From: Oxalobacteraceae bacterium
Lineage (GTDB): Bacteria > Pseudomonadota > Gammaproteobacteria > Burkholderiales > Burkholderiaceae_D
DNA: 16,977 nt
Reading direction: 5' to 3'
Assembly (NCBI GenBank): GCA_027485795.1
Contig: JAIXQK010000139.1
Span: 1-16,977 of the forward strand
Shown here: positions 4,060 to 15,937 of the stretch, piece by piece
How positions within the stretch are numbered: the first letter of the stretch is position 1
Layout: the number at the start of each line of letters is the position of its first letter
Notes under the pieces: generated by a model
Told to the model about the DNA's origin: nothing
Databases searched by the model: none
The model's input: only the letters and a program-made list of their open reading frames with translations
Program-made: the position numbers and the translations under genes

Positions 4060-4077
4060 GATTTACTCGTCTGATAG

Positions 4078-4731: not shown

Positions 4732-4889
4732 GTGTGGTTCTTTCAGTTGATCATTGATCAGAAGAATCTCAAGTCCCCCAAAATGAGTTAAGGTTAGGGC
4801 GACGTCTTTCAGTCCCTAGTCGGGTTTTTACCAGTCGTGCCTATGATTAACAGCTTTTGACTTACGTTTGTGGCTGATTTTTTACGGGA

Positions 4890-5174
4890 TTACTGTGCCG
4901 AACGCTTCGGATTTGCTATTTCGCGTTCTCGAGCTTCGCGCTGTCGTATGGCTTCTGCAATGCGCTTTTGCTTGGCCTCCTCAGCTAGCCTAGCTTGCTC
5001 AACCATTGTTGTATATGACTCGAAATCAGGCTCCACTTTTCGCTCAATTCCGAATAGCTTTTCGACCGTAGAGGCGATCGGGTAGGGCTTACTAGCACAT
5101 CCAGCGCACGTCACTATCATTGCAATATACATTGCAACCAGTTGAGCATTGACAATTGTATTTGGGATTTGCAT
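4890..5174 (-). CDS. Small probable lipoprotein with charged helical tail
   Basis: 94-aa ORF, first gene of the same-strand trio. It has a hydrophobic segment ending in VTCAGC (lipobox-like A-G-C). The C-terminal half AEEAKQKRIAEAIRQREAREREI is a charged helix. The start is uncertain because the SD is weak and there is an internal Met at MYIAMIV. Confidence 0.5.
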   Translation of the reverse strand: MQIPNTIVNAQLVAMYIAMIVTCAGCASKPYPIASTVEKLFGIERKVEPDFESYTTMVEQARLAEEAKQKRIAEAIRQREAREREIANPKRSAQ

Positions 5175-5305
5175 GTGGCCTAATGTTTTTTAACCAGCCT
5201 TATTAGTAATACAAGCCCAAGCGCTTCCACCGGATCAACGATCCCCATATTCATTCGCATTCCATTTACTGACTAGTGACTAAGTTACTTAAGACGCGTT
5301 ACTCG

Positions 5306-5626
5306 TCAATGATAGTTTCCCTGGAAACAATGCCTTACTTCGTGTCCTAGTTCGTGACCGTTTGGTCGTTTTTTAGTAATAATTGTGTAATGATTATCTA
5401 CCCAAAAACTACAAGCTTCTACGCTATAACCGATACCCCCGAGCCCTCTGTGGCGACTTTCCTTTTCACAAGCTTGATTGATATTGTCAACATAAACCCA
5501 TGTTAACTGTATCGCACCGTATTTGTTCTTTTTGGCATCAAATCTGGCCATTGGATCGTTCCATTCTTGAGCCGTAGCGGAGGTCATCGGGATGAGCAGT
5601 GCTGCGGCAAGAAAGATTCGTTTCAT
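5306..5626 (-). CDS. Small secreted HExxH-motif protein, copy B
   Basis: 106-aa ORF MKRIFLAAALLIPMTSATAQE...HELGHEVRHCFQGNYH, a paralogue of 1700..2089. Its stop codon (tca on the + strand, 5306-5308) lies immediately outside the repeat homology. Confidence 0.65.
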   Translation of the reverse strand: MKRIFLAAALLIPMTSATAQEWNDPMARFDAKKNKYGAIQLTWVYVDNINQACEKESRHRGLGGIGYSVEACSFWVDNHYTIITKKRPNGHELGHEVRHCFQGNYH

Positions 5627-5827
5627 GGCAAGTACTCAACGTTATGTGTAAGCCAAATTCACTCGGGCAAGCAACCTCGGGTAATGATATGGTATGGAAT
5701 TAATGACTAAATGTCTACCTCAGGGAAGTCACTCTTAAGAGGGCTCATTGCACGAATTAGTTATCAAAGTCTTATCAGTAAACTGATTTGGCATGTTAGT
5801 ACTTATGAAACGATTGGCACGAGGGCC
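5309..5827. repeat. Diverged 519-bp direct repeat, copy B
   Basis: Colinear with 1772-2290. I count about 28 mismatches in the 201-nt non-coding part, roughly 86 percent identity. Confidence 0.85.
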
Positions 5828-5842
5828 AATCGTCTCGAAATA

Positions 5843-6283
5843 CTATTTGGCAAACCCAGCCCTTAGTGCCCCGCTCGCTGCCTCAATTTGTGGATCGAGT
5901 TCGCCAGCAAGCGTTGCTGCCTTAAGCGTCTGCAGCGTCGTTATCAGCTCTTCGCCCGACGCTAGTTCTATCGCATTTTTTCCCTTGGCTAGTTCAAGCA
6001 CCTTGCTGCCATACTTGACCGAGAGATTGATCTTGCCCGCATCATTAATCCAAAACCATTCCTTTACGCGCTTGACTGCTTCGATGGTTACTCGCTCGCC
6101 AGTCTGTTTATTGGTGACCGTGCGTAGACGCTTGGGGGCGTAGATTTCACCGGCGCGCTGTGCTTCGCAAAGCTCAATTTGCTCGTGGATTTTGGCAGCG
6201 AGTTTATTGCGGCGATGCGCTACTGGCGAGATGGTGCGATTTTTCTTGCTGGCGACAAGTTTTAGTGCGTTGAGGGTACTCAT
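5843..6283 (-). CDS. Conserved hypothetical protein (family I recall from proteobacterial genomic islands; function unknown)
   Basis: The ORF runs 5843..6313. The ATG at 6283 is preceded by AAGGAG with a 5-nt spacer, giving MSTLNALKLVASKKNR...ASGALRAGFAK (146 aa). The N- and C-terminal motifs match a widespread uncharacterised family as I remember it. I cannot verify this without a search. Confidence 0.65.
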   Translation of the reverse strand: MSTLNALKLVASKKNRTISPVAHRRNKLAAKIHEQIELCEAQRAGEIYAPKRLRTVTNKQTGERVTIEAVKRVKEWFWINDAGKINLSVKYGSKVLELAKGKNAIELASGEELITTLQTLKAATLAGELDPQIEAASGALRAGFAK

Positions 6284-6461: not shown

Positions 6462-6725
6462 TTAATATTTGTTGATGTCATCTTCCGTTAGCAGTGTTTG
6501 GTCCGATTTTGTTCTGAAGTACTTGCGAAGGATCACAATCGCAACAAAAGACCCAATAGCAAACACAATGACATCACGACTTAGAGAAAAAGAGCTCGTC
6601 AAAAACTGAACGATCGCAACGCACAGCGTACCAGCTGCGAAGCCTAGGCAAATAAGTGTGAGCGTAAAGATTTCACAAATGACCAGTACGAAGGTCAGGA
6701 TCAGCGATATTTGATAGTACTTCAT
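6462..6725 (-). CDS. Small integral membrane protein, possible NfeD-like partner lacking the OB-fold domain
   Basis: 87-aa ORF starting 7 nt after the SPFH stop on the same strand. It has two or three hydrophobic helices and a short polar tail. The gene order SPFH then small membrane protein mirrors E. coli qmcA-ybbJ. Confidence 0.55.
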   Translation of the reverse strand: MKYYQISLILTFVLVICEIFTLTLICLGFAAGTLCVAIVQFLTSSFSLSRDVIVFAIGSFVAIVILRKYFRTKSDQTLLTEDDINKY

Positions 6726-6732
6726 GACGGCG

Positions 6733-7593
6733 TCACTTTATAAGTTTTTCGATGCCACCACTCAGAGCAGATACGATATCGGTTGGTAGAACAACCAGCT
6801 TGGTATTTGATCCAGATGAGATATCTGTCACCGATTTTGCTTGAATTTTTTTCACCTCAAAGTCGATCGCGCTCTGTCCGCCGTTTGCGATTGCTTCAGA
6901 AACAACTTTGACTGCATAGGCTTCTGCGTCTGCTAGGATCTTTTTTGCTTCAGCTTGTTTTTGTGCGGTGTAGAGATCCGCATCTGCCTTTAGTTGTGCT
7001 GCTTGCTTTTCCCCCTCGGCAGATGTAACTTGCCCACGCCGTTTTCTCTCTGCATTTAGCTGGATTTGCATTGCCTCACGCGTCGACTGATCAACTTCGA
7101 CTTCGGTCACCTCCACGCGAGTCAGCTTAATTCCCCATTCGTCGGCGATATGATTAAGCTCGGATTCAATTTCTGTGACGATCGTTCTTCGATTGGTTTG
7201 TACACCATCAAGGTCAGTTTTTCCGATTAAGCTCCTGACCGTACCCTCGATAACAGTTTTGATGCCAGCCGAGAGGTTTTCGATGCGGTATTTCGACTTG
7301 GATGGATCGATGATCCGGTACAAGATCGCTAGCCGAATATCAATCTGCACATTGTCCTGTGTTATTGCTCGAATAGGGTCCGGGGGCAGTTGGGTTTCTT
7401 GCACCGACACTCGATATCGGATTGTTTCAACAAAGGGTACGATGAGCTGCAAGCCTGCGCCAAGGGTACGGTTGTATTTGCCCAGTCGCTCGACTACCCA
7501 ATTCTCGCTTTGTGGAACGATATTGATCGCAAACTTTAGCGAAATAACAATCAGCGCTGCTAGCACCAGGTAAACCAGTGTTGAAAATTCCAT
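6733..7593 (-). CDS. SPFH / band-7 (stomatin-, QmcA-like) membrane protein
   Basis: 286 aa with AAGGAG 8 nt upstream of the ATG at 7593. It has an N-terminal TM anchor followed by NIVPQSENWVVERLGKYNRTLGAGLQLIVPF...WGIKLTRVEVTEVEV and an Ala/Lys/Glu-rich coiled coil, the typical SPFH architecture. Confidence 0.9.
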   Translation of the reverse strand: MEFSTLVYLVLAALIVISLKFAINIVPQSENWVVERLGKYNRTLGAGLQLIVPFVETIRYRVSVQETQLPPDPIRAITQDNVQIDIRLAILYRIIDPSKSKYRIENLSAGIKTVIEGTVRSLIGKTDLDGVQTNRRTIVTEIESELNHIADEWGIKLTRVEVTEVEVDQSTREAMQIQLNAERKRRGQVTSAEGEKQAAQLKADADLYTAQKQAEAKKILADAEAYAVKVVSEAIANGGQSAIDFEVKKIQAKSVTDISSGSNTKLVVLPTDIVSALSGGIEKLIK

Positions 7594-7740
7594 CGCAGCT
7601 TCTCCTTCGGATTAATCTAAGCCCAATCGCTTCTGGGCTAGTCTCTACGGTCGCCCCACAAATACTACACGAGAAGTATTAGTAATTAAATTGCTATGAT
7701 TTTTGTAATACTAGCGCGTTGGTGGTTAGCACCGTTTTAA

Positions 7741-7813
7741 AAGCCCTACAGCGCGTTTGTATAGGCGCTGGGTATTCTAGGTTGCGCTGCTTAAAAAACA
7801 GCGTGTAGGGCTT
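7741..7813. repeat. Nested inverted-repeat element (10-bp outer stem enclosing two GCGC(T)G hairpins)
   Basis: The outer arms aagccctaca (7741-7750) and tgtagggctt (7804-7813) are perfect complements. Inside, cagcgc/gcgctg (7749-7754 / 7765-7770) and gcgctg/cagcg (7784-7789 / 7799-7803) can form two further hairpins. Confidence 0.5.
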
Positions 7814-7827
7814 GTACAGCATCGCAA

Positions 7828-7852
7828 GTTATCCACATAAGCTGTGGACAAC
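7828..7852. promoter_or_regulatory. 10-5-10 palindrome containing a perfect DnaA box (TTATCCACA) facing a near-perfect one (TTGTCCACA)
   Basis: The sequence is gttatccaca-taagc-tgtggacaac, with one arm mismatch. TTATCCACA (7829-7837) equals the DnaA-box consensus. The site can also be read as 9-7-9, like the core site of a tyrosine recombinase. Confidence 0.5.
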
Positions 7853-7991
7853 GGCTCAGTTTCGCAACAGATCAGCGCCCAACAACTCGGTTGTATCGGC
7901 GTGCACAGAAATGTGGCAATCATCCTACGAGTTTAACAACCACGTTGACTGTTGTGGCTGTTGATTTTGCAACGAGATCGCTGGTGTCTAG

Positions 7992-8025
7992 AACCACATC
8001 AAATGCATGTTTGATGTGGTTTTTT
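7992..8025 (+). terminator. Hairpin plus T-tract (possible intrinsic terminator or protein-binding palindrome)
   Basis: aaccacatcaaa (7992-8003) pairs perfectly with tttgatgtggtt (8010-8021) across the 6-nt loop tgcatg, and is followed by tttt. The stem has only 4 of 12 G:C pairs, so the terminator call is tentative. There is no T-tract on the other strand. Confidence 0.4.
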
Positions 8026-8158
8026 GCTGAGCAGTGCTAAGTCATTGAATTTTGGAAGGAATCATTTTAAGGGTATTCCGCTAAAAATTGGTCGTCCAAA
8101 CAAAGCAAAGAAATTACGCTGTGTATGTGTTTAAGATTTGGTTAGAAAGGACGCACAC

Positions 8159-8731
8159 ATGCCCAAGCAAGCAAAAACCCTTCAAGCCCAAGAATTGCGC
8201 CGAGTGCTGGATTACCTTGCAACGCGCCCTCATGCATTACGTAATCGTGTGATGCTATTAACAACCTATTACGCTGGGCTGCGGGTAGGGGAGGTCGCCA
8301 ACTTACGCTACGGCGATATTGTCGATGGGCTCGGGCATATCCGCGATGAAGTTAGGCTTGATCCCGGGCAGACCAAAGGACGCTTTGGTCGGGTGGTGTT
8401 TATCAATATCAAGCTCAAGCGCGAGCTCGCGGCTTACCTTGCTCGGTTTCCGCAAACAGCCGCAGACCAAAAGTTGTTCGCTACCCAAAAGCGTGCAACT
8501 GGCTTCACGCCCAATACACTGGCGCAGCATTTTTATGGTCTCTATCGCGGCGCTGGCATCGAAGGGGCGAGCAGTCACTCGGGTCGGCGAACGTTTATTA
8601 CCAATCTCGCGAGTAAAGGCGTTGGGGTGAGGGTGCTGATGAGCCTAGCGGGTCACAAGCATATCGGTACGACTCAAGCTTATATCGATGTAAATGATGA
8701 GATGAAGCGCCAGGCAGTGGAACTTGTCTAG
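8159..8731 (+). CDS. Small (190-aa) tyrosine recombinase, catalytic domain only (FimB/FimE-sized)
   Basis: The ATG at 8159 is preceded by AAAGGA; the ORF track begins at a TTG at 8138. The catalytic signature is present: AGLRVGEV (Arg), TKGRFGRVV (Lys), HSGRRTF (His-x-x-Arg), LAGHKHIGTTQAYIDV (His, Tyr). There is no N-terminal core-binding or arm-binding domain. Confidence 0.85.
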   Translation: MPKQAKTLQAQELRRVLDYLATRPHALRNRVMLLTTYYAGLRVGEVANLRYGDIVDGLGHIRDEVRLDPGQTKGRFGRVVFINIKLKRELAAYLARFPQTAADQKLFATQKRATGFTPNTLAQHFYGLYRGAGIEGASSHSGRRTFITNLASKGVGVRVLMSLAGHKHIGTTQAYIDVNDEMKRQAVELV

Positions 8732-9111
8732 TCTCGTTTGACCCAGCGGTGTTCACCTCGCCAGCCTATTTCTTCGTCGGATAGTCCGGTTACGCGTTGA
8801 TAGTTTTGATCGGCTTGGCGCTGAACATCGGCATACCGCATGAATGCTTTGATGATGTCGATCTCGGTTGGCTCAACCGTCTGTGCATCGCGACCTATTT
8901 GAGCAGCAAGATACTTTTGCACCCAAGCGTGTTGCCAAGCTTTGGGATAGACCTTGACAGTCCGCTTGGGTGGTGAAGTGGGGACTGTGGGTGTGGGGAT
9001 TTGGGCAGCCGCTGACTGCTGCTGTTGTTGAATCAAGCGTTTCTGTTGTAGTTGTTGCTGACTGATTTTCAGTATGGGTGTTGCAGCTGGGGCAAATTCA
9101 AGAAAGCGCAT
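8728..9111 (-). CDS. Hypothetical protein with Gln-rich and Pro-rich N-terminal low-complexity region
   Basis: 127-aa ORF with AGGA about 9 nt upstream of the ATG at 9111. It lies downstream of and on the same strand as the 301-aa ORF. I recognise no family. Confidence 0.5.
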   Translation of the reverse strand: MRFLEFAPAATPILKISQQQLQQKRLIQQQQQSAAAQIPTPTVPTSPPKRTVKVYPKAWQHAWVQKYLAAQIGRDAQTVEPTEIDIIKAFMRYADVQRQADQNYQRVTGLSDEEIGWRGEHRWVKRD

Positions 9112-9168
9112 GTTGTATATCCTGGGTAGATCCTATTCCATGTATTTATAGGTTCTAGGATTACGGTA

Positions 9169-10068
9169 TCAAAGTGATTGCAGCAGTAGCCTCGCCTGAA
9201 CCATGGCTTCAATCGCTTTTTGTCGCTTGATCATGGGTTTGACTTTTCGCTCGTAGTAGGTTTTTCGGACGGAAACACCACTGTTGATTTTTTCGCGCCT
9301 GCGATTGTGCGCGATCTTGATCTGCTGAGCTGACAATACCCAAATTTGTTCGTAATTGAATGAAAGACCAGTGTCGATAGGTTCAAGCGACGGGAACACA
9401 CCGCGCGCAGCGTTTTCAGCCAGGTAAAACGATTCCTTCAGATGTTTGCTGACCAATATCCCGAGACTGGTGCGCGCTTCAAGATTATCAATGGTGTTTT
9501 TGGTGGCGGTTTTGAGCTCGTCTGTCCATTTACTTTTGAGCTTCACTTCTACCCCAAGCCGCCAATTTGAGATCTTTTTGCCGGTTTTGCGCTCAATGCG
9601 ACCCTTATCGTTGACTAATGCTAATCGTGCGTGCAGTGCGCTTAGCCGCACTTTATTCGTGAGAAATCTAATTGCCGAGCGCCGCTTGGATGATCGGTCC
9701 GCTTTTGCTTGACGGACAAAGGCGGTGAACTCCGCGATCAGTCTGTTTGGCGATTGTGCCAAGTCCACGGGATAGGCAATCAAATTCCCAGCATCGTTTG
9801 GATCGCGTAGCAAGTCTCTGCCCCGTTCCTCCCACCAGTCTTCGAATTCAGTTTCGTAGATATTTCCGCACAGTTCGTAGATCTCCAACACCCGTTTGAA
9901 GTCAGTTGGGAGTTGTCCTTTCTCGCTTTTCGTTAGTCCAACTGTTCGCTGCCGGTGGGCAAGCTGATAGCTGGGACTTGCTATCAAAAAGTCAAAAAAA
10001 GCCTCTTCCTTGTCCGTTGCATGCCGGGTGCTGGCCAGGAGGCTCAGGATTTTACGGTCAGTATTCAT
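9169..10068 (-). CDS. Hypothetical protein (about 299 aa)
   Basis: The long ORF is 9169..10074. The track start is a GTG at 10074 and the first ATG is at 10068. A perfect TATAAT (10080-10075 on the - strand) abuts the GTG, which puts the ATG about 7 nt downstream and raises the possibility of a leaderless mRNA. The C-terminus is basic. I recognise no family. Confidence 0.6.
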   Translation of the reverse strand: MNTDRKILSLLASTRHATDKEEAFFDFLIASPSYQLAHRQRTVGLTKSEKGQLPTDFKRVLEIYELCGNIYETEFEDWWEERGRDLLRDPNDAGNLIAYPVDLAQSPNRLIAEFTAFVRQAKADRSSKRRSAIRFLTNKVRLSALHARLALVNDKGRIERKTGKKISNWRLGVEVKLKSKWTDELKTATKNTIDNLEARTSLGILVSKHLKESFYLAENAARGVFPSLEPIDTGLSFNYEQIWVLSAQQIKIAHNRRREKINSGVSVRKTYYERKVKPMIKRQKAIEAMVQARLLLQSL

Positions 10069-10210
10069 AAACACATTATATGAAATAAGGTAATTAAGAT
10101 TTTATACAAAAGACAGTTCTTTCGCGATCGGGTTCAATCCGATCCATCGAAACGCCGCAAAGCGCTTCGGTGGAATTCAACCCAATTCATCTTTTGCGAA
10201 AGGCTTTGCC

Positions 10211-11179
10211 ATGACTACAACACTTGCGGCAGTACCGACCCAATCCCTGCCGATCAACGCGCCCACTAGCGCGCCACCGGTGACACTGACCAATCTGTTT
10301 CGACCCAAGGCAGCACAGGCGGCTGAGACCGCACTGACTAAACCAGTTCCAGCTGGCGTGGCGGGCGCTGTCGAGGTGGCGAATACCCTGCTGGCGAGCT
10401 ATGCCCAGCTCAAGGTTGAGGTGCTGGACCGCTCTGACCGTGCTTTATGGGCTTTGCTGGGTGAGGTGTATGCCTATGTAGCGGCGGTGGATGGGTCGCC
10501 CTTGAAGCGCGAGACGCGCGCTGAGTTGATTCGCCAGATTAGCCAACGTACGGGCTCATCGGTTTCCACGGCAGCGACGACTGCTGCGATTGTGGTGCGC
10601 TACATCTTTGCTGACCAATCCCGCCAGACCTGGAGTAACTACACGATTGCCATGGAAAAGGCAGCGGCTTTGGGTGTGACCACCGACAGCTTTGCGGGCT
10701 TTTTGGAGCAGTACGGCGGGGTCACCAAGGTGGTTGAGCACACGTTTGACTACCAGGCTGACGATGCAGCAACGGCTGCTGAGATTGCGCGCGAGCAGCG
10801 TGATACCAAGCAATCTCGCGTGGGCTTGGTGGGTCGCCTATGTACGGCACTGGCACATGCCTCCACGGTACAGCTGACCTATCGCGAGCCTTTGCATGTG
10901 TGGGTTCCAACCAAGCCTAAGAAGGCGGCGAAGGCTGCTAAATCAGCCGGTAAAGATGACAAGCTCGATCCCAAGTTCGAGAAGGGAAAGTTTGTGGTGT
11001 TTTTGACCGTACCGGACACCACAACAGGCACGTACCGAGTGGTCCAGGGCAACGTGTTTAATCGGGCAGTTGAAGAGCAGCTCTTGGCTGCAATGGCTGA
11101 GCGCATGGGTGCTGACGCCGACGAGTTGACCCAAGCGGTCGTCTCGCTTGAGCAAAGCATTAGCGGCGCTGCTGAATAG
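10211..11179 (+). CDS. Hypothetical Ala-rich protein with basic KPKKAAKAAKSAGK linker
   Basis: 322-aa ORF with AAAGG 7 nt upstream of the ATG. It is the first gene of the + strand operon that contains the polymerase-like gene. I recognise no family. Confidence 0.6.
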   Translation: MTTTLAAVPTQSLPINAPTSAPPVTLTNLFRPKAAQAAETALTKPVPAGVAGAVEVANTLLASYAQLKVEVLDRSDRALWALLGEVYAYVAAVDGSPLKRETRAELIRQISQRTGSSVSTAATTAAIVVRYIFADQSRQTWSNYTIAMEKAAALGVTTDSFAGFLEQYGGVTKVVEHTFDYQADDAATAAEIAREQRDTKQSRVGLVGRLCTALAHASTVQLTYREPLHVWVPTKPKKAAKAAKSAGKDDKLDPKFEKGKFVVFLTVPDTTTGTYRVVQGNVFNRAVEEQLLAAMAERMGADADELTQAVVSLEQSISGAAE

Positions 11180-11425
11180 ACCCCACTGTTTATACCCTGT
11201 GGGTCGAGCGTCTGGACACCTTGGGTGTGTCCAGATGCTGGATAGCCCCGTAATCGATACTCGAGTTGAAAAAAAGATCGGAGGATGGAATCGGCTTCGC
11301 CTCTTTCTATCGCTCTTTCCTTCTTTCCTGACCAATTTCTCTTTGCTCGAATTGATGGCAACTACGGGGGTTTGGGAAGCGCAGCTTCCTACTATAAGTG
11401 TGTGTATTTTTTAGAAAGTACAGCC

Positions 11426-12904
11426 ATGTTCAAGATTGTCATCGACCCGATCGTACTGCAGCGGCTCAGGAAGGCGTTTCCAAAGCCACCGCAGTGCGCA
11501 GACAAAGCCTTGGAGAAATACCGGCTATTACTTGAAGACCTCCTATTTAAAGCCATTCAGCGTGGACGCAGTGCCTATGAGCTGCGCTTTAACCTGTATT
11601 CGATCCCAGCCGCTGACTTATCGCATAAGGGTCCGCAGCTATCACTGGGTAAAGAGCGGCTACATGCATGGCTCAAAGCCCAACAGCTCGACCTCATACA
11701 AATCGTTGAGCTGGGTAGCAATCTGAATGGGCTGGTCTCAAAAGTACGACTGACCAACTTGGTCACCATCGATGATGGTTTAACCGGTCTTGCTCAGCAG
11801 CTAAGTTACGCGAAGAGCGCCGCTGAGGTTGACGCATTGCTGTGCGCAGATATGGCTGCGAACGCCAAGTTACTCAGCGAACTGTTCCCCGACTATTTCT
11901 CTTATCTATCAGCCCACCAGCGCGCCCAGGTATTTGACAACGTCCCCATCGATATCGGATCACTCGAAGCCTATATCGTCTGGCTCAATACCAAAGCGAC
12001 CAAGCTATCCGCCACCAAAATCCAGACCTATACCCGGCAGGCAATGATGATTCTGGCGGTTGCCAAGTACACAGGCGGGTATTTCCCAATGCGTAAAAAG
12101 CCAAGCGACTTTGGGCGTATGTATTACACCGGCACCAGTGTCCAGAATGTGGACAAGACGCTGCGACGAGCAATGCTGGGAGACTGCTGGGAATACGACA
12201 TCAAATCCGCAGTCATTGCCTGGAAGTTGACTTTTGCGCAGGAGCTAGCGGCTGCGCTCGATCCTAACCGAGCGGTTGAGCGCCAGTTCTGGGCATCTAT
12301 CTTGTATGTCACTGTGCGCTCCGAATTCATGCGCGATGTTCGTGCTGCCACCTTCGATCAATCAACGCTGCTACCGAGGGACGCACAAAACGCCCTGATC
12401 AAGCAGGCGGTCACCGCCATTGGGTTTGGTGCGCGCGCTAAGACCAGCGGCTGGCGCGAGGTGAATGGTACTTGGACGAATCCCTCCTTGGTCGAGCTAC
12501 TTAAAAACCCCGACGAGCGTAGCCGTTTCTTTGCTTGCCCAATGATTCAGCAATTCATTACCGAGCAGGCAGCACTCGACAAGTACCTGGCTCATGGCAT
12601 GAAGGCAGCGATGCCCGAGGTGTACTTCGGACCCTTAATTACCGCCAATACCAAGCCCAGCCCATCGAAAGCCGTGGCTTACCTCTATCAGCATCAAGAA
12701 ACCCAGGCAATGAATATTGCCCGCGCAGTTCTAGCCAAGCACGGCATACAGCCCATTGCCAACATTCATGACGCGTTCATCGTCAAGCGAAAATTACCAA
12801 CCGATGTGCTGCATGAGGTCATTTTTGAGATGCAGGAGCAGATGGAAAACCCCTATTTTTCCATGAAAGGAGACAAGCTTGAAGGATTCCGATTTGCCAT
12901 TTGA
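11426..12904 (+). CDS. Compact (492-aa) polymerase-like protein of the T7-RNAP / Pol I (family A) superfamily
   Basis: The ORF is open from 11285, but its first 47 codons are low-complexity and the ATG at 11285 abuts GGAGG with no spacer, so I start at Met 11426 (MFKIVIDP). Hand alignment from memory finds five matches. (1) DFGRMYYTGTSVQNV versus Pol I TGRLSSxxPNLQNI and T7 DWRGRVY. (2) Motif A, EYD258IKSAVI. (3) Motif B, K326QAVTAIGFG versus T7 KRSVMTLAYG. (4) YQHQETQAMNIARAV...KHGIQPIANIHD449AF versus T7 HSQDGSHLRKTV...KYGIESFALIHDSF. (5) The C-terminus GFRFAI versus T7 DFAFA. Confidence 0.6.
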   Translation: MFKIVIDPIVLQRLRKAFPKPPQCADKALEKYRLLLEDLLFKAIQRGRSAYELRFNLYSIPAADLSHKGPQLSLGKERLHAWLKAQQLDLIQIVELGSNLNGLVSKVRLTNLVTIDDGLTGLAQQLSYAKSAAEVDALLCADMAANAKLLSELFPDYFSYLSAHQRAQVFDNVPIDIGSLEAYIVWLNTKATKLSATKIQTYTRQAMMILAVAKYTGGYFPMRKKPSDFGRMYYTGTSVQNVDKTLRRAMLGDCWEYDIKSAVIAWKLTFAQELAAALDPNRAVERQFWASILYVTVRSEFMRDVRAATFDQSTLLPRDAQNALIKQAVTAIGFGARAKTSGWREVNGTWTNPSLVELLKNPDERSRFFACPMIQQFITEQAALDKYLAHGMKAAMPEVYFGPLITANTKPSPSKAVAYLYQHQETQAMNIARAVLAKHGIQPIANIHDAFIVKRKLPTDVLHEVIFEMQEQMENPYFSMKGDKLEGFRFAI

Positions 12905-13739
12905 TATTGAGTTTGACCGTGCTCTTAAAACTTTTGAGGAAAACATGACGACCTATCTGATCTTGACAGCGCCTGTTCCAGGCAATCGTGAAATATCAGC
13001 CGATACCAACGAGTCACTGGCATGTGAAATTTATGTAGCTATGTCGGGGCTAGCACCGGGCGACCGTAACCATGTAGCTTTGGCGTTAGCATCCGCACCC
13101 CAATCGATCGCGTTAGATCCTAGCCAAGCCATCGCTACGCTATCGATTCATACCAGTGGGTTAGTGCTATGGAAGCAGCGCTATCGCGCAACCTATATCT
13201 GCGCCCATCAACTTCACCTAGCAGCGATCGATCACGACTGCGAAGCGATCATTACCCACGCCGAGCAGTTATCAGTGCTTCTTGAGCAGGCAACTGAGCT
13301 GGGTGAGTATGACTTAACCGATCGTCTGGGCATCGATCGCTGCGGGGACAACTTTGACAACGAAGCGAATGCAGTCTTTGAAATCGCTGAAGAGCTTGAG
13401 GCGATTCTAGGATGCACAATCGCCGCCACACCCCAAGACGGGGGAGGCGAATTCGATGCGATTTGCTCCAACTGTGGCGAGCCGATGCACGATCATGGTG
13501 ATGAAGCCGCCTGGCACGTGGTCACCGCACAGGTTGCGGATGGTCACCCCTGCGATGTGTATTTCATATCTCACAGCATGGAGGAGGTCGATCAATTTGC
13601 AGCAGCAGTCCGTCCCAGGCTTGTGTGCACCAGTGCCTATACAACCTTAAGTGAGGCGCAGGCATTTGCTGATCAGCATTTACAGGGGTATGACGAAATC
13701 GATCCGAATGCAATGCATCTTTCGGATAACTTACATTAA
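12879..13739 (+). CDS. Hypothetical acidic protein with a Cys/His cluster (CSNCGEPMHDHGDEAAWH)
   Basis: 286-aa ORF from the TTG at 12879, with AAGGAG 6 nt upstream, overlapping the polymerase-like gene by 26 nt. The alternative start is the ATG at 12945, preceded by GAGGA. I recognise no family. Confidence 0.55.
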   Translation: MKDSDLPFDIEFDRALKTFEENMTTYLILTAPVPGNREISADTNESLACEIYVAMSGLAPGDRNHVALALASAPQSIALDPSQAIATLSIHTSGLVLWKQRYRATYICAHQLHLAAIDHDCEAIITHAEQLSVLLEQATELGEYDLTDRLGIDRCGDNFDNEANAVFEIAEELEAILGCTIAATPQDGGGEFDAICSNCGEPMHDHGDEAAWHVVTAQVADGHPCDVYFISHSMEEVDQFAAAVRPRLVCTSAYTTLSEAQAFADQHLQGYDEIDPNAMHLSDNLH

Positions 13740-14218
13740 TCTGTCTGCTGTAGACGCGCGAGTAGAAGCTGATGCCCAAGCTCACGCAAAGCAGCTTCAG
13801 TGTCCATCTTCTTGACACGACCCGTGTCAAATGTGAAGTCGGTGTAATTACCTTTACTGCTAGCGGTGATGGTGATTGCGCCGACTTCTGTCTTTGTGGC
13901 GTACTTTGCCGTAAAGCGTGGAATTAGATCAGTCGCGACGACCTCGTAGCTCACTTCGCTAGCAATGCCGCTATTGCTGGGCATTGCCCAATAGCCGACC
14001 ATATCGTCATAGCAGCGGTTCTTCAGTCTATCGACGATGAATGCGGCATCTTTGGAGCTGACATGCTTCAGCTGCGGTAGCTCACCCGACAAATCCTCTC
14101 CCGCTACTAGACGCTTTTTCACGCCATCGAAAAACTTCAAATCGGCTACGCGATCGCTGCAACGGCTTAACGCAGTCGCAGCGTGTTCCTTCAGGTAGTC
14201 GATTGCTTCTTGGCTCAT
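13736..14218 (-). CDS. Hypothetical protein (160 aa), downstream of the integrase on the same strand
   Basis: Clean ORF with no competing frame and no recognisable motifs. Its stop overlaps the stop of the convergent 286-aa ORF (ttaa). Confidence 0.55.
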   Translation of the reverse strand: MSQEAIDYLKEHAATALSRCSDRVADLKFFDGVKKRLVAGEDLSGELPQLKHVSSKDAAFIVDRLKNRCYDDMVGYWAMPSNSGIASEVSYEVVATDLIPRFTAKYATKTEVGAITITASSKGNYTDFTFDTGRVKKMDTEAALRELGHQLLLARLQQTD

Positions 14219-14310
14219 GAGATTTTTCGGTCGTGGCGGTAGGTATCTGTTTCGGGGTTTTTTTGCTTGTTGAGTCAGACGTGCAGGGTAGCGCAGGCTA
14301 CGGGGTTTTG

Positions 14311-15699
14311 CTACCGCTTTTGTTTCTTTATAGCGGCGCTACTGAGCTCTTTTTCCAGCTCCTCCGCAGCACGGGGATTGGCTTCAGTTAGGGTGATATG
14401 GATGCCCGTTGTGGCAGTGATAAGGCTCATAACGTCAGCGCGGACTGGGGAGATTTGGGCAAGTCGGCGGATTTCCTCAGCTTCAGCCGTTTGGGCATCG
14501 GGCATAGCGCCCGCTAGCTGCTCGGCAATCATCAGCGGTTTCAGATGGCTGTAGTGCTTTTCAATCATCGCCACTGAGGTTCCCATCTGGTTCGCTAGCT
14601 GTCCGAAGCTGACACCTTCTAAGATACGTTGTGTCGCGTAGTAGTGCCTGAGGCTATATAGACTGCGGGCTTTGCCATCTTTGTCGCCTTTGCTCATCCC
14701 GCATTCAGCCAAGCAGTCGGCAAAGGAATTGACCAAGTTGTAGGGTTTTGTGCCGTCTCGCAGCTTAAACAGCAGTTTGGGTGACTTGCTGGCAACGACC
14801 TCTTCCAGCGTCATATCGGCAAAGTCAGCGTCTAGCTGGCGAAGCTTCTCTAGCAGCGCCCACAGCTCATTCCTAGCAATCAGTGTGCGGCTCCCACGCT
14901 TACCCTTCGGCAGCGTGATATGGATGACCCGCATATTGGGCTTCTGCACGAATTCAATGTGCTTCCAGCACAAATCTTCAGTTTCGGTCCCAGGTCGTAC
15001 GCCAGTACACGCAACGAAGGTCACGTACAAGCCCAATAGCTCCCGTAACCAGCGGCTACGCTCGGTGCGGGCATTGGCGCTCCATTGCTGGATGAATGCC
15101 TGCAGCTCTATCAGTTCGTCAGTGCTGAATGAGCCTCGTGACTGAGTAGCGCCACCCGTATTCTTTAGCCCAGGTCGTTGGCTCTCGGTCATATAACTCT
15201 TTTCGATGGCGTAGTCGAAAACAGCGTTCAGGGCAGCATTGTGATTGTTCTGTGTACTAGCTTTGAGTTCGTAGCCAACCTTTTCCTTACGCCACCGATG
15301 AAACTCACTGACGATAGCAGGGGTGATCCGGTCGATGTTGTACGCACCGAAGAAGGGGATGAGGTAGCTATCGATAGCGCGATGGTAGTCGGCGTAACTT
15401 TTTTTGCCTGTACCTGCGTTCACTTCTTTCTTAAATCGTTCGCTTACGAATCGTGCAACGCTCGCGAACTTTTTACTGACTACTGCTAGTCCGCGTTTAT
15501 TTAATACGCGTGCTTCGTGAAATAAGTCTTCAGCGATTCGCTTTGCTTCGTCGAGGTGAGGTGTGCCTGATGTCTTGCGGTACCAATTTTTCGTAGCACC
15601 AATCTTGTAATGTATCTGCCAGTTCTTTGTTTCGGGGCGACGAATCAAGTTCAGCTCTTGTTCGCGCAGAACGACAGTTTCGCTTGATATATCAGGCAT
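14311..15699 (-). CDS. Tyrosine integrase (phage/genomic-island type), tRNA-Lys adjacent
   Basis: 462 aa. The catalytic region reads ACTGVRPGTE (Arg), LYSLRHYYAT (His-x-x-Arg context) and MGTSVAMIEKHYSHL (Tyr). It has a long N-terminal arm/core-binding region. The gene begins 163 bp from the 3' end of the tRNA. Confidence 0.9.
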   Translation of the reverse strand: MPDISSETVVLREQELNLIRRPETKNWQIHYKIGATKNWYRKTSGTPHLDEAKRIAEDLFHEARVLNKRGLAVVSKKFASVARFVSERFKKEVNAGTGKKSYADYHRAIDSYLIPFFGAYNIDRITPAIVSEFHRWRKEKVGYELKASTQNNHNAALNAVFDYAIEKSYMTESQRPGLKNTGGATQSRGSFSTDELIELQAFIQQWSANARTERSRWLRELLGLYVTFVACTGVRPGTETEDLCWKHIEFVQKPNMRVIHITLPKGKRGSRTLIARNELWALLEKLRQLDADFADMTLEEVVASKSPKLLFKLRDGTKPYNLVNSFADCLAECGMSKGDKDGKARSLYSLRHYYATQRILEGVSFGQLANQMGTSVAMIEKHYSHLKPLMIAEQLAGAMPDAQTAEAEEIRRLAQISPVRADVMSLITATTGIHITLTEANPRAAEELEKELSSAAIKKQKR

Positions 15700-15702
15700 T
15701 TA

Positions 15703-15748
15703 TGTGAATTTTTAGCATTGTGTCCTGAGTGTAAAGTAAAAATTCACA
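15703..15748. promoter_or_regulatory. Perfect 12-bp inverted repeat immediately upstream of the integrase start codon
   Basis: tgtgaattttta (15703-15714) and taaaaattcaca (15737-15748) are exact reverse complements separated by 22 bp. The proximal arm ends 3 nt from the int ATG at 15699. Confidence 0.45.
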
Positions 15749-15809
15749 ATGGGCAAAGAAATGAACTGTGCGACAACTGTGTAACGCTAAAAATGCGCAA
15801 AAAATAGGC

Positions 15810-15840
15810 AAAAAAAATGGCTCATCCGAAGATAAGCCAT
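15810..15840 (-). terminator. Intrinsic terminator of tRNA-Lys
   Basis: On the - strand, AUGGCUUAUC-UUCG-GAUGAGCCAU forms a 10-bp stem with one G.U pair and a UUCG tetraloop. Seven unpaired U follow. The hairpin begins 21 nt after the tRNA CCA end. Confidence 0.7.
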
Positions 15841-15861
15841 TGATTTTTCTGCTATTTATTC

Positions 15862-15937
15862 TGGTAGGTCGTGCAGGACTTGAACCTGCGACCAACGGAT
15901 TAAAAGTCCGCTGCTCTACCAACTGAGCTAACGACCC
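15862..15937 (-). tRNA. tRNA-Lys (anticodon UUU), 76 nt with encoded CCA
   Basis: The reverse complement reads GGGTCGT TA GCTC AGTTGGTA GAGC A GCGGA CTTTTAA TCCGT TGGTC GCAGG TTCAAGT CCTGC ACGACCT A CCA. This is a full cloverleaf with a G1.U72 wobble and anticodon loop CT-TTT-AA. Confidence 0.93.

What the first reader, a model, noticed from the sequence alone, without database searches (positions are those of the whole stretch)
8159..15861. tRNA-Lys island with two tyrosine recombinases, a private polymerase and otherwise only unknown genes: candidate new class of integrative (satellite-like?) element
Between the tRNA-proximal integrase and the small recombinase lie two divergent operons: 10068->8728 on the - strand and 10211->13739 on the + strand. 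A further unknown ORF follows int. I cannot assign any of the six unknown proteins (127, 299, 322, 286 and 160 aa, plus the polymerase partner) to phage structural, conjugative, partition, toxin-antitoxin or known defence families. The only enzymatic signatures are two recombinases and a family-A-like polymerase. The compact size and the combination of integrase and replication-type enzyme resemble phage satellites or small integrative replicons. However, known satellites use primase-helicase or Rep initiators, and pipolins and casposons use family B polymerases.
Basis: inference. Interest (0 to 1): 0.7.

Follow-up and report, generated by a model that had tools for sequence, protein, structure and literature searches.

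The report
tRNA-integrated island with private mini-polymerase
This is a real mobile DNA island, inserted next to a tRNA-Lys gene in a freshwater Burkholderiaceae bacterium, that carries its own stripped-down family-A DNA polymerase, two recombinases and an origin-like region. It belongs to a large family of such islands that no searched paper describes, though the general idea of mobile elements with mini family-A polymerases was proposed in 2008.

Summary

- **Polymerase call supported.** An AlphaFold model (pLDDT 85) matches Klenow and T7 DNA polymerase. It matches virophage TV-Pol replication proteins better still. The catalytic residues are conserved in 233-234 of 234 relatives.
- **The island is an insertion.** A contig from the same host lineage is 98.7% identical from cpoB through tRNA-Lys, then continues into metabolic genes with no island. 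The integrase is 95% identical to one in a host whose neighbouring cpoB is only 41% identical.
- **The stated extent is too small.** The conserved backbone includes DUF6641 (5843-6283). The whole window left of 15861 is absent from the empty site.
- **New feature.** A conserved 565-nt non-coding region upstream of the small recombinase holds paired DnaA boxes, an AT-rich stretch and a perfect 28-bp dif-like palindrome whose arms co-vary.

The best model is an integrative element with an episomal phase. Host DnaA opens the origin, the polymerase primes or extends DNA, and the small recombinase resolves multimers.

It is not categorically new. TV-Pol elements (Iyer 2008) and the SCCmec CcPol-MP primase are precedents. 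I rate it a new variant of a known kind.

The parts
15862..15937 (-). tRNA-Lys(UUU), the integration target. The island joins at its 3' end.
   Evidence: ARAGORN and Rfam. It has a perfect sigma-70 promoter at 15977-15948. Identity with empty-site contig L188 runs through the whole tRNA and stops at window 15855.
15700..15861 (-). attR-side arm of the element. It carries an element-supplied terminator hairpin for the tRNA (15816-15841), repeated TTACAC/CACAG motifs, the integrase promoter region and the second copy of the TAAGYCATTGA repeat (15833-15848).
   Evidence: The sequence differs completely from the empty site directly after the tRNA. It is conserved with L001 and shows compensatory changes in the hairpin. 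Terminator scan. Repeat analysis.
14311..15699 (-). Large tyrosine integrase (462 aa), which catalyses integration and excision at the tRNA.
   Evidence: phrog_1 integrase 1.2e-28 and SAM-like N-terminal domains. It is 95% identical to the integrase of L102/L143, which sits next to a cpoB that is only 41% identical. Relatives lie beside tRNA-Asn, -Lys, -Arg or -Val in at least 18 loci.
13736..14218 (-). p160, a conserved 160-aa protein always just downstream of the integrase gene. It is a candidate excision or directionality factor (inference only).
   Evidence: The family is present in 21 loci, always as 'p160< INT<'. No Pfam, PHROG or PDB match.
12879..13739 (+). p286, a distant, enlarged member of backbone family f10. 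Function unknown.
   Evidence: hmmsearch with the f10 family profile gives E 1.6e-13. The family is found in 25 ORFs of 18 loci, between p322 and p160.
11423..12904 (+). Minimal family-A (TV-Pol-like) polymerase of about 492 aa, with no proofreading or 5' nuclease domain and an N-terminal domain of about 170 aa of unknown role. The longest ORF starts at 11285.
   Evidence: - AlphaFold pLDDT 85, pTM 0.72.
- Foldseek PDB: Klenow E 1e-6, then T7 DNA polymerase, Taq and Pol theta.
- Foldseek BFVD: uncharacterised freshwater phage proteins E 1e-25, virophage TV-Pol-helicase proteins 1e-9 to 1e-7, canonical phage PolA about 1e-6.
- R232, D259, K327, F335-G336 and H449-D450 are conserved in 233-234 of 234 relatives and in 13 of 13 viral relatives.
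10211..11179 (+). p322, a conserved backbone protein that heads the + strand operon. Function unknown.
   Evidence: The family is present in 24 loci plus a divergent branch f48 (E 3.9e-12), always divergent from p301. No Pfam, PHROG or PDB match.
9169..10074 (-). p301 (299-301 aa), a conserved backbone protein transcribed divergently from p322. Function unknown.
   Evidence: The family is present in 34 loci. No Pfam, PHROG or PDB match.
8728..9111 (-). p127, a small Q/P-rich protein of the MRF.E... type.
   Evidence: Relatives are found in window-type loci next to the small recombinase or downstream of DUF6641. No family match.
8159..8731 (+). Small tyrosine recombinase (190 aa, catalytic domain only) with an intact R-K-HxxR-H-Y set. 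It is the proposed resolvase for the adjacent palindromic site.
   Evidence: PF00589 2e-25, phrog_216 2e-40, Xer-like NCBIfam hits. It is 70-97% identical in more than 70 metagenome loci. It is present in 46 of 81 polymerase loci.
7594..8158 (.). Conserved non-coding region U, a candidate origin plus resolution site. It contains:
- an AT-rich stretch at 7660-7719 (GC 25-28%);
- convergent DnaA boxes TTATCCACA (7829-7837, +) and TTGTCCACA (7843-7851, -);
- a perfect 28-bp palindrome ACCACATCAAA-TGCATG-TTTGATGTGGT (7993-8020);
- invariant blocks, including TAAGTCATTGAATTTT (8038-8053).
   Evidence: - Conserved across loci.
- The palindrome is unique in the window, with 0 expected by chance.
- Its arms co-vary in 18 loci: 93.9% paired against 82.7% in shuffles, 0 of 500 shuffles reach that, and 4 pairs carry compensatory changes. 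It lies about 165 nt upstream of the ATG in most loci of the clade.
- DnaA-box 9-mers are enriched 6- to 10-fold at fixed positions in 116 loci.
- AT-rich stretch.
6462..7593 (-). Cargo inserted between DUF6641 and region U: an SPFH/Band-7 protein (6733-7593) and an 87-aa ORF (6462-6725).
   Evidence: PF01145 4e-29. It is absent at this position in L102, L001 and L044, where DUF6641 and U are adjacent.
5843..6283 (-). DUF6641 protein (146 aa from M11), the most conserved backbone gene. It is always transcribed outward from U, divergently from the small recombinase. In most relatives it lies just downstream of the polymerase.
   Evidence: PF20346 8e-11, phrog_31551 4e-27. Found in 56 of 81 polymerase loci and in thousands of metagenome proteins. 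It lies inside the att-bounded element of L044. AlphaFold pLDDT 85, but no PDB fold match with E below 0.07.
1..5842 (.). Further inserted DNA, either cargo or an adjacent island. It holds a CHAT-TPR protein (cut at the window start), two paralogous secreted HExxH proteins, lipoprotein-like orphans and others. The left end of the island is not in the window.
   Evidence: CHAT PF12770 3e-59. A 300-nt repeat at 79% identity. None of this DNA is in the empty-site contig L188. No copy of the tRNA 3' end occurs in the window.

Best explanation
The window holds one member of a large family of tRNA-integrating mobile elements of freshwater Burkholderiales. I found no description of this family in the searchable literature.

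**Shown**
- It is an insertion at the 3' end of tRNA-Lys.
- It is horizontally mobile and mosaic.
- It encodes an intact large integrase, an intact small catalytic-domain-only tyrosine recombinase and a catalytically intact minimal family-A polymerase.
- It has no helicase, ATPase, capsid or transfer genes.
- It has a conserved non-coding region with DnaA boxes, an AT-rich stretch and a co-varying 11-6-11 palindrome beside the small recombinase gene.

**Inferred mechanism**
1. The large integrase, perhaps with p160, excises the element as a circle.
2. Region U acts as a plasmid-type origin. Host DnaA binds the paired boxes, melts the AT-rich stretch and loads host DnaB. This would explain why the element needs no helicase of its own.
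3. The element's TV-Pol-like polymerase starts DNA synthesis there, either de novo as a primase-polymerase like SCCmec CcPol-MP or by extending a primer as Pol I does for ColE1. It may work together with DUF6641.
4. The small recombinase resolves replicon multimers at the 28-bp palindrome next to its gene, as XerS does at difSL or Cre at loxP.
5. The large integrase then re-inserts the circle at a tRNA.

Variable cargo rides along. Here it is SPFH, CHAT and secreted HExxH proteins; elsewhere it is Peptidase_C14-MORN, Peptidase_M23 and toxin-antitoxin genes.
For: **Insertion and mobility**
- Empty site L188 is 98.7% identical over 1123 nt, up to window 15855. It then continues into FMO-like, permease and GCV_T genes.
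- Between the window and L102, the integrase is 95% identical, p160 84%, the polymerase 75% and the small recombinase 73%, against 41% for the flanking cpoB. DUF6641 is 44% identical to L102 but 83% to L001, which shows mosaicism.
- Related loci use tRNA-Asn, -Lys, -Arg or -Val as targets.
- A 51-nt att direct repeat bounds a 9.5-kb element in L044.
- Some genomes carry several copies.

**Polymerase**
- Family-A fold, closest to TV-Pol.
- Catalytic residues are near-invariant in 247 sequences.
- Motif C is HD[A/G/S], never HDE. The steric-gate position is V/A/I. Both are as in RNA polymerases and primases rather than proofreading DNA polymerases.
- The family comprises 776 clusters at 50% identity, all stand-alone proteins.

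**Origin and resolution site**
-.

**No helicase or ATPase**
- No Walker A motif in any window ORF, and at most sporadic regex matches among members of the conserved families.

**Precedents**
- TV-Pol elements with integrases, predicted to be prim-pols (PMC2579912).
- CcPol-MP, shown to be a primase (PMC10061031).
Against: - No excised circle, replication intermediate or activity has been observed. Every step after 'it is an insertion' is inference.
- The one small stand-alone contig examined (L007, 10.4 kb) is bounded by IS fragments and is not a circle.
- The polymerase is dispensable for persistence. L162 is a 90-94% identical copy of L001 with a 1.6-kb deletion of the gene. Some minimal relatives (L182, L132, L114) have an integrase, DUF6641 and the small recombinase but no polymerase.
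- The polymerase sits in two different operon contexts, so it behaves as a module.
- DnaA boxes within one mismatch are missing in 32 of 74 window-type loci. Such boxes can also be promoter regulators.
- No iterons or Rep protein were recognised.
- The 11-6-11 palindrome was not found in the tRNA-Asn-type relatives.
- DUF6641 shows no detectable OB or SSB fold.
- The left att site was not found.
Confidence: 0.5

Rival explanations
1. The element is integrative but does not replicate on its own. The polymerase, with or without DUF6641, is a cargo or accessory module. It could be an anti-phage or anti-plasmid nucleotide polymerase (in the manner of AbiK/DRT-type polymerases), or a damage-tolerance or gap-filling enzyme. 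Region U would then be only a regulatory region for the divergent small-recombinase and DUF6641 promoters.
For: - The polymerase is absent from closely related and minimal elements.
- Its position varies between two operon contexts.
- The islands carry conflict-type cargo: CHAT, Peptidase_C14, toxin-antitoxin genes.
- DnaA boxes can act as operators.
- Distant relatives of the polymerase occur in phage contigs without the other backbone genes.
Against: - No PADLOC match.
- The polymerase lies in the conserved backbone of 81 loci, not in the variable cargo slots.
- The nearest structural relatives are replication proteins of virophages and phage polymerases.
- The known precedents, TV-Pol and CcPol, are replication enzymes.
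- A multimer-resolution-type site next to a recombinase, plus an AT-rich stretch and DnaA boxes, is the standard anatomy of a replicon.
- The POL-less copy L162 is a deletion derivative that still retains the 3' end of the gene.
Confidence: 0.25
2. It is a phage satellite or a cryptic, very small virus. In this reading the unknown proteins (p301, p322, f10, p160, DUF6641) include capsid, packaging-redirection or helper-sensing functions, and the element is mobilised by a helper phage.
For:
- DUF6641 has a PHROG family (phrog_31551).
- The closest structural relatives of the polymerase are in uncultured freshwater Caudovirales.
- Most backbone proteins have no known fold, so structural roles cannot be excluded.
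Against: - No terminase, portal, capsid, packaging ATPase or any P-loop protein.
- No tblastn hit of the polymerase or DUF6641 in 50,697 phage genomes.
- The IMG/VR relatives share only the polymerase.
- No member of the 49 backbone proteins scanned matches any PHROG.
Confidence: 0.1
3. The unit that moves is only the 7.8-kb segment from the small recombinase to the integrase (8038-15848), bounded by the TAAGYCATTGA direct repeat. DUF6641, the DnaA boxes, the palindrome and everything to the left would belong to an older resident island. This is essentially the first reader's extent.
For: - A direct repeat of 11-16 nt sits at the same two relative positions in 4 of 5 tRNA-Lys loci and co-varies (T or C in both copies).
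- The repeat pair brackets the interval from the small recombinase to the integrase.
Against: - Region U is contiguous and conserved across the repeat in all loci. That includes L044, whose 51-nt att sites lie elsewhere and enclose DUF6641, U and the small recombinase.
- The DUF6641-U-small recombinase module travels with unrelated integrases and tRNA targets.
- Both repeat copies are element DNA; the tRNA-proximal one is absent from the empty site.
- L143 lacks the repeat although its integrase is 95% identical.
Confidence: 0.1

Closest known systems
TV-Pol-encoding mobile elements (Iyer, Abhiman & Aravind 2008, Biol Direct 3:39; PMC2579912)
   Same: - A stand-alone 400-600-aa minimal family-A polymerase with no nuclease domain.
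- A thumb coiled coil, a beta-hairpin arginine and two palm aspartates.
- Linkage to a lambda-type integrase in bacterial islands, and relatives in phages and virophages.
- Those authors predicted a primase-polymerase role in element replication. Their alignment even includes a Thauera protein, and a Thauera locus (L068) is in this family's neighbourhood set.
   Different: - Sequence-level membership could not be shown. There is no Pfam model, and hhalign against the candidate Ma-LMM01 TV-Pol gives E 0.41.
- The fingers motif is QxxxxK rather than RxxxK.
- There is no D5-like helicase nearby.
- The N-terminal domain is mixed alpha/beta, not all-helical.
- The rest of the backbone (DUF6641, DUF6876, p301/p322, f10/f12, p160, the small recombinase and region U) was not described in that paper.
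SCCmec CcPol-MP primase and PolA-SSB pairs of Bacillota islands (Bebel 2020; Rice 2023, PMC10061031)
   Same: - An A-family polymerase domain with a truncated N-terminal region.
- It is encoded in the core of a site-specifically integrating island that carries conflict-type cargo.
- In most relatives a small partner gene lies immediately downstream of the polymerase.
- Experimental proof exists that such an enzyme can prime DNA synthesis.
   Different: - That group is known only in Bacillota, uses large serine recombinases, integrates at rlmH or ssrA and always has a helicase.
- Its partner is an OB-fold SSB. Here the partner candidate DUF6641 has no detectable OB fold, there is no helicase, the recombinases are tyrosine type, and in this window the polymerase and DUF6641 are unlinked.
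Pipolins (piPolB elements; PMC7385651, PMC11551731)
   Same: - tRNA-integrated islands, often with two tyrosine recombinases, a private primer-independent DNA polymerase and exchangeable defence-type cargo.
- They are called 'self-synthesizing' integrative elements.
   Different: The polymerase is family B (piPolB), not family A. There is no homology in the backbone, and no DnaA-box or palindrome region has been reported.
Single-recombinase Xer/dif modules and plasmid resolution systems (XerS/difSL, XerH/difH, Cre/loxP, ResD/rfsF) - from established knowledge
   Same: A tyrosine recombinase gene has its approximately 28-34-bp site (two inverted arms around a 6-8-bp centre) immediately upstream. 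This arrangement is used to resolve circular replicon dimers.
   Different: - The recombinase here has only the catalytic domain (190 aa, FimB/FimE-sized).
- The site is a perfect palindrome unrelated in sequence to dif.
- Activity is untested.

Membership tests
Family-A (PolI/T7-like) polymerase superfamily | Right-hand fold with palm, fingers and thumb superposable on Klenow or T7 DNA polymerase | tested here: met
   AlphaFold pLDDT 85. Foldseek PDB gives 61 hits at E<=1e-3, and all 50 listed (Klenow 1e-6 and others) are family-A polymerases, although TM is only 0.35-0.39.
Family-A (PolI/T7-like) polymerase superfamily | Motif A Asp, motif B K-x7-[YF]-G and motif C H-D all conserved | tested here: met
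   D259, K327...F335-G336 and H449-D450 are conserved in 233-234 of 234 relatives and in 13 of 13 viral relatives. The Klenow E883 equivalent is A/G/S, as in T7 RNA polymerase (HDS).
Family-A (PolI/T7-like) polymerase superfamily | Detectable sequence homology to the curated family (Pfam PF00476 or PDB sequences) | tested here: not met
   No Pfam, NCBIfam or PHROG hit. phmmer and profile hmmsearch against PDB returned nothing at E<=10.
TV-Pol family (Iyer 2008) | Four synapomorphies: a two-helix thumb, a beta-hairpin with an invariant Arg, two palm Asp, and fingers with a conserved Asp and an RxxxK motif | tested here: inconclusive
   Present: thumb helices 178-190 and 197-216, hairpin R232 (invariant), D259 and D450, and fingers D386 (187 of 234). 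The motif is Q322-x4-K327, not RxxxK.
TV-Pol family (Iyer 2008) | Closer to bona fide TV-Pols than to canonical PolA | tested here: inconclusive
   - Structure favours TV-Pol: virophage TV-Pol-S3H proteins (Zamilon, Qinghai Lake and others) score E 1e-9 to 1e-7 with rmsd about 5 A, against about 1e-6 for phage PolA.
- Sequence does not confirm it: hhalign against Ma-LMM01 MAP_030 gives E 0.41 with only motif-level agreement, and the HMM search was not significant.
TV-Pol family (Iyer 2008) | No nuclease domains, located on mobile elements with an integrase, resolvase or transposase | tested here: met
   The DxE exonuclease motif is absent from the N-terminal domain (sequence). The integrase context is seen in at least 22 loci.
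PolA-SSB (CcPol-MP-like) primases | A small OB-fold ssDNA-binding partner encoded next to the polymerase | tested here: not met
   The adjacent partner in 56 of 81 loci is DUF6641. Its confident model (pLDDT 85) has no PDB match with E below 0.07, and none to SSB or OB proteins. In the window it is 5 kb from the polymerase.
PolA-SSB (CcPol-MP-like) primases | A helicase (Cch or rep) in the same operon | tested here: not met
   No Walker A motif in any window ORF, and none consistently present in any conserved backbone family.
PolA-SSB (CcPol-MP-like) primases | De novo primer synthesis | not testable with these tools
   Requires a biochemical assay.
tRNA-targeting integrative genomic island | Presence/absence polymorphism with a junction at the tRNA 3' end | tested here: met
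   L188 compared with the window: 98.7% identity that ends at 15855, 6 nt past the tRNA end.
tRNA-targeting integrative genomic island | Direct att repeats at both ends | tested here: inconclusive
   Found in relative L044 (51 nt, 98%). Not found in the window, whose left end lies outside it.
Phage satellite (PICI, P4-like, PLE, cfPICI) | Packaging or capsid-hijack genes, a primase-helicase or Rep, and helper-responsive regulation | tested here: not met
   No PHROG structural or packaging hits. No ATPase. No phage-genome matches.
Pipolin / casposon (self-synthesizing elements) | A family-B polymerase (piPolB, or PolB plus Cas1) | tested here: not met
   The polymerase has a family-A fold. No Cas1 or PolB domain was found.
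Plasmid-type DnaA-dependent origin | DnaA boxes next to an AT-rich unwinding element, conserved among relatives | tested here: met
   A perfect TTATCCACA and an inverted TTGTCCACA lie 5 nt apart. Such boxes are enriched 6- to 10-fold at fixed positions in 116 loci. A stretch of 25-28% GC lies 110-170 nt away. Origin function itself was not tested.

The most novel reading that the evidence does not exclude
These elements are a third, bacterial lineage of 'self-synthesizing' integrative elements. Their replication would be started by a helicase-independent, minimal family-A primase-polymerase acting at a DnaA-opened origin, with DUF6641 as a new kind of initiator or polymerase accessory factor. 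The polymerase family, with motif C HD[A/G/S], no steric-gate Glu and 776 clusters shared with freshwater phages, would represent the near-ancestral state between DNA and RNA polymerases of superfamily A that Iyer et al. postulated. Cultured Limnohabitans and Zwartia strains that carry the element make this testable.
Probability: 0.3. Interest if true: 0.75.

Novelty: new variant of a known kind. Interest (0 to 1): 0.6.

Why it matters
- Private DNA polymerases on integrative elements are rare. They are central to ideas about how viruses and transposons arose (casposons, polintons, pipolins, virophages).
- Minimal family-A 'TV-Pols' were predicted in 2008, but only the Staphylococcus CcPol-MP enzyme has been studied.
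- This family gives a well-populated Proteobacterial counterpart, with more than 150 loci and several cultured carriers.
- Its anatomy is unusual and simple: no helicase, a probable DnaA-dependent origin, and a Xer-like resolution module. Nine backbone proteins lack any known fold or family.
- It would allow direct tests of whether a roughly 490-aa family-A enzyme can prime and replicate a 10-kb circle.
- These islands move protease, CHAT and membrane cargo among abundant freshwater bacteria, so they are also relevant to lake microbial ecology.

Tried and rejected
**Prophage, plasmid or ICE origin.** megablast and tblastn of the island, the polymerase and DUF6641 against 50,697 phages and 72,556 plasmids found only the tRNA. 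Rejected.

**Known defence system.** PADLOC gave no hits.

**DUF6641 as an OB-fold SSB.** The AlphaFold model is good but has no PDB fold match. Not supported.

**Function of p301, p322 and p160.** Profile searches against PDB sequences returned nothing below E 0.5. Scans of 49 backbone proteins returned no informative Pfam hit (two single-member matches to uncharacterised families) and no PHROG.

**Sequence link to a bona fide TV-Pol.** hhalign and HMM searches against Microcystis phage Ma-LMM01 MAP_030 were not significant.

**Extrachromosomal copy.** The 10.4-kb contig L007 from a long-read assembly ends in IS fragments with no terminal overlap. It is not a circle.

**Left att site.**
- No copy of the tRNA-Lys 3' end occurs in the window, with up to 3 mismatches in 22 nt or by local alignment.
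- The left flanks of L162 and L143 contain only orphan genes.
- The left end remains undefined here.

**Iterons, tandem repeats and RNA families.** Nothing convincing.

**Gene context of viral relatives.** Only the polymerase is shared. L083 is a novel phage with HNH endonucleases and one structural hit.

**TAAGYCATTGA repeat as attL/attR.** Considered, and judged unlikely to be an integration junction.

**Literature.** Searches for DUF6641, DUF6876, PolA-like integrative elements and Limnohabitans/Polynucleobacter islands found no description of this family.

Full report

Yes. ARAGORN finds a single tRNA-Lys(UUU) at 15862-15937 on the minus strand. cpoB/ybgF follows at 16072-16977.

- integrase, 462 aa, 14311-15699 (-)
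- 160 aa, 13736-14218 (-)
- 286 aa, 12879-13739 (+)
- 539 aa, 11285-12904 (+). Relatives are about 490 aa, so the real start is probably M47 at 11423.
- 322 aa, 10211-11179 (+)
- 299/301 aa, 9169-10074 (-)
- 127 aa, 8728-9111 (-)
- a 190-aa tyrosine recombinase with only the catalytic domain, 8159-8731 (+)

The six 'unknowns' have no hit in Pfam, NCBIfam, PHROGs or PADLOC. The four tested against PDB sequences (polymerase, p301, p322, p160) have no match there either.

**2. The polymerase**

*Size and spread of the family.* The 539-aa ORF has more than 400 close relatives, all annotated as hypothetical. It has 776 clusters at 50% identity in 1.8 billion representatives, all stand-alone proteins of about 450-650 aa.

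*Fold.* An AlphaFold model from a 33-sequence alignment is confident (pLDDT 85, pTM 0.72). Against the PDB, every one of the 50 listed hits is a family-A polymerase: Klenow at E 1e-6, then T7 DNA polymerase, Taq and Pol theta, with TM 0.35-0.39. Against predicted viral structures the ranking is:
- uncharacterised proteins of uncultured freshwater Caudovirales (E 1e-25, TM 0.67);
- virophage and polinton-like 'DNA replication' proteins such as Zamilon and Qinghai Lake virophage (1e-9 to 1e-7, rmsd about 5 A). These are TV-Pol plus superfamily-3 helicase fusions;
- ordinary phage PolA (about 1e-6).

*Catalytic residues.* The following are conserved in 233-234 of 234 relatives and in all 13 distant viral relatives:
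- hairpin R232;
- motif A Y258-D259;
- motif B K327-x7-F335-G336, the same spacing as Klenow K758...Y766-G and T7 RNA polymerase K631...Y639-G;
- motif C H449-D450.

The residue after the motif C Asp is A/G/S, never the Glu of DNA polymerase I. The position of the Klenow steric-gate Glu (motif A Asp + 5) is V/A/I. No DxE exonuclease motif is present.

The enzyme is a minimal family-A polymerase without proofreading, with features that leave its sugar specificity open.

**3. The window belongs to a large family of elements**

Scanning one genome per species gave 80 loci. Almost all are in freshwater Burkholderiales (Limnohabitans, Polynucleobacter, Oxalobacteraceae, Rhodoferax, Zwartia). Some genomes hold several copies: one scaffold has three, and Limnohabitans Rim28 has three.

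Clustering all ORFs of these loci shows a conserved backbone. The common arrangement is:

small recombinase< DUF6876> [cargo] POL> DUF6641> f5> p301< p322> f10> f12> p160< INT< tRNA-Asn

The window-type arrangement (window, L001, L002, L044, L102/L143, L189 and many metagenome loci) is:

[cargo] DUF6641< U small-recombinase> p127< p301< p322> POL> f10> p160< INT< tRNA-Lys

The 286-aa protein is a distant f10 member (E 1.6e-13). None of 49 members scanned has an informative Pfam hit or any PHROG hit. No window ORF carries a Walker A motif, and no conserved family carries one consistently, so there is no helicase, terminase or transfer ATPase.

**4. It is mobile, and it is an insertion**

- *Different targets.* Related integrases sit beside tRNA-Asn, -Lys, -Arg or -Val.
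- *Defined ends in one relative.* In L044 a 51-nt direct repeat of the tRNA-Arg 3' end (98% identical) bounds a 9.5-kb element. That element contains two cargo genes (one a Peptidase_M23), DUF6641, U, the small recombinase, p301-like, p322-like, POL and INT, with host glmM beyond.
- *Element genes are far more similar than host genes.* Between the window and L102, INT is 95% identical, p160 84%, POL 75% and the small recombinase 73%. The adjacent host gene cpoB is only 41% identical. DUF6641 is 44% identical to L102 but 83% to L001, which shows mosaicism.
- *An empty site exists.* Contig L188 (ENA ERZ27272103) carries a cpoB from the same 90% cluster as the window's, annotated as Burkholderiaceae. 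It is 98.7% identical to the window over 1123 nt, from cpoB through the complete tRNA-Lys to window position 15855. It then continues into its own terminator, FMO-like, amino-acid permease, GCV_T and DmmA-like genes. None of these occur in the window.

The tRNA's terminator hairpin in the window (15816-15841) is supplied by the element.

All of window 1-15861 is absent from the empty site. No copy of the tRNA 3' end is present, so the island's left end lies outside the window.

In L143/L102 the flank homologous to L188 starts about 0.7 kb beyond DUF6641. That suggests a core element of about 9.5-10 kb ending just past DUF6641. The CHAT and secreted-protein region (1-5842) may be extra cargo or a neighbouring island.

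**5. A conserved non-coding region that looks like an origin plus a resolution site**

The 565 nt between the SPFH gene and the small recombinase (7594-8158) are conserved across loci whose proteins are only about 70% identical. Four features stand out.

*A perfect palindrome.* ACCACATCAAA-TGCATG-TTTGATGTGGT lies at 7993-8020, with 11-nt arms and a 6-nt centre, the geometry of dif. It is unique in the window, with 0 expected by chance. In 18 loci the two arms change together: 93.9% of cells are paired against 82.7% in shuffles, 0 of 500 shuffles reach the observed value, and four positions carry compensatory changes. The site sits about 165 nt upstream of the recombinase ATG throughout this clade.

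*Paired DnaA boxes.* A perfect TTATCCACA (7829-7837) faces an inverted TTGTCCACA (7843-7851). Across 116 loci, DnaA-box 9-mers with at most one mismatch are enriched 6- to 10-fold over shuffles in the 600 nt upstream of the small recombinase, at fixed positions. This holds in both architectural types.

*An AT-rich stretch.* A stretch of 25-28% GC lies at 7660-7719.

*Invariant blocks.* One of them, TAAGTCATTGAATTTT (8038-8053), recurs as TAAGCCATTGATTTTT at 15833-15848, in element DNA beside the tRNA. The same pair, with co-varying bases, is seen in L001, L162 and L149. It is not seen in L143 or in tRNA-Asn-type loci. I could not explain this repeat. It is unlikely to be an integration junction, because region U is contiguous in L044, whose att sites lie elsewhere.

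**6. Most likely mechanism**

Shown:
- insertion at tRNA-Lys;
- horizontal mobility;
- an intact integrase, small recombinase and polymerase;
- no helicase or ATPase;
- a conserved region with DnaA boxes, an AT-rich stretch and a palindrome.

Inferred:
1. The large integrase excises a circle.
2. Host DnaA opens U and loads host DnaB.
3. The TV-Pol-like enzyme primes and/or extends DNA there, possibly with DUF6641. DUF6641 is always transcribed outward from U and lies just downstream of the polymerase in most relatives.
4. The small recombinase resolves multimers at its neighbouring palindrome.
5. The integrase re-inserts the element.

Precedents are the TV-Pol elements predicted to be prim-pols (PMC2579912) and the SCCmec CcPol-MP primase (PMC10061031).

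Weak points:
- No circle has been seen. L007 is not one.
- The polymerase is deleted in a 90-94% identical copy (L162 against L001) and is absent from some minimal relatives. It is therefore not needed for persistence.
- DUF6641 has no OB or SSB fold.
- DnaA boxes are missing in 32 of 74 window-type loci.

I put this model at about 0.5. The rivals are an accessory or defence role for the polymerase (0.25), a satellite or cryptic virus (0.1), and a 7.8-kb unit bounded by the TAAGYCATTGA repeat (0.1).

**7. Comparison with known systems, and novelty**

The element works like a TV-Pol or CcPol-type self-priming island and, in layout, like a pipolin: a tRNA target, two tyrosine recombinases, a private polymerase and swappable cargo.

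Membership tests give these results:
- Family-A fold and motifs: met.
- Curated sequence families: not met.
- TV-Pol synapomorphies: three of four met, with QxxxxK in place of RxxxK.
- Structural proximity to TV-Pol: met. Sequence link: not shown.
- PolA-SSB primase group: both the OB-fold partner and the helicase are not met.
- Satellite, pipolin and casposon features: not met.

Literature searches found no description of this backbone, of DUF6641 or DUF6876, or of PolA-type integrative elements in Proteobacteria beyond the 2008 survey.

It is still interesting, because it offers an abundant, culturable and anatomically simple system for studying minimal family-A polymerases in element replication.

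Noticed in passing
window 1700-2089 (-) and 5306-5626 (-): Two paralogous small secreted proteins (129 and 106 aa) share a signal peptide, conserved cysteines and an HELGHEVRH (HExxH, metalloprotease-like) motif. They are encoded by a 300-nt repeat at 79% identity, 3.5 kb apart. No Pfam family matches.
   Followed up: partly
window 50-1678 (+): A CHAT (caspase-like) domain protein with TPR repeats is cut off by the window start. Related islands carry Peptidase_C14-MORN proteins at the equivalent distal position (L102/L143 and the JGI contig). Caspase-like proteases therefore recur as cargo or flank of these islands.
   Followed up: partly
window 6462-7593 (-): An SPFH/Band-7 (HflK-like) gene plus an 87-aa ORF is inserted between DUF6641 and the conserved region U. 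It is absent at that position in related elements, which points to a cargo slot inside the backbone.
   Followed up: partly
window 8038-8053 and 15833-15848: The direct repeat TAAG(T/C)CATTGA brackets the segment from the small recombinase to the integrase. It is conserved and co-varies in 4 of 5 tRNA-Lys loci and is absent in tRNA-Asn-type loci. Its function is unknown.
   Followed up: partly
window 15816-15841 (-) and 15948-15977 (-): tRNA-Lys has a perfect TTGACA-18-TATAAT promoter. Its terminator hairpin is provided by the island and differs from the terminator in the empty site. The hairpin shows compensatory changes between the window and L001.
   Followed up: yes
L188 1400-1892 (empty-site contig): Directly downstream of tRNA-Lys in the empty site lies an uncalled stretch 67% identical to the 3' part of a Peptidase_C14-MORN gene of L143. 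It may be a remnant of earlier island traffic at this hotspot.
   Followed up: no
L001 5987-7608 compared with L162 about 10230: Two elements at the same site, 90-94% identical in DNA, differ by a clean 1.6-kb deletion. It removes the end of p322 and most of the polymerase gene.
   Followed up: yes
p127 (window 8728-9111) and families f5 and f6 in L007, L016, L035 and others: Several small backbone proteins begin with MR(I)F.E and are rich in Q, P and A. They sit downstream of DUF6641 or beside the small recombinase. They may be a divergent paralogous set of unknown role.
   Followed up: no
L081-L099 (IMG/VR contigs of 26-36 kb): Distant relatives of the polymerase (24-34% identity, 470-615 aa) occur in novel phage-like contigs that share no other gene with the island. 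In L083 the gene is flanked by HNH endonuclease genes.
   Followed up: partly
L109 and L189 (left part): Some loci carry two small recombinase genes in the arrangement 'small recombinase< DUF6876> DUF6641< U small recombinase>'. This looks like tandem or nested elements of the two architectural types.
   Followed up: no
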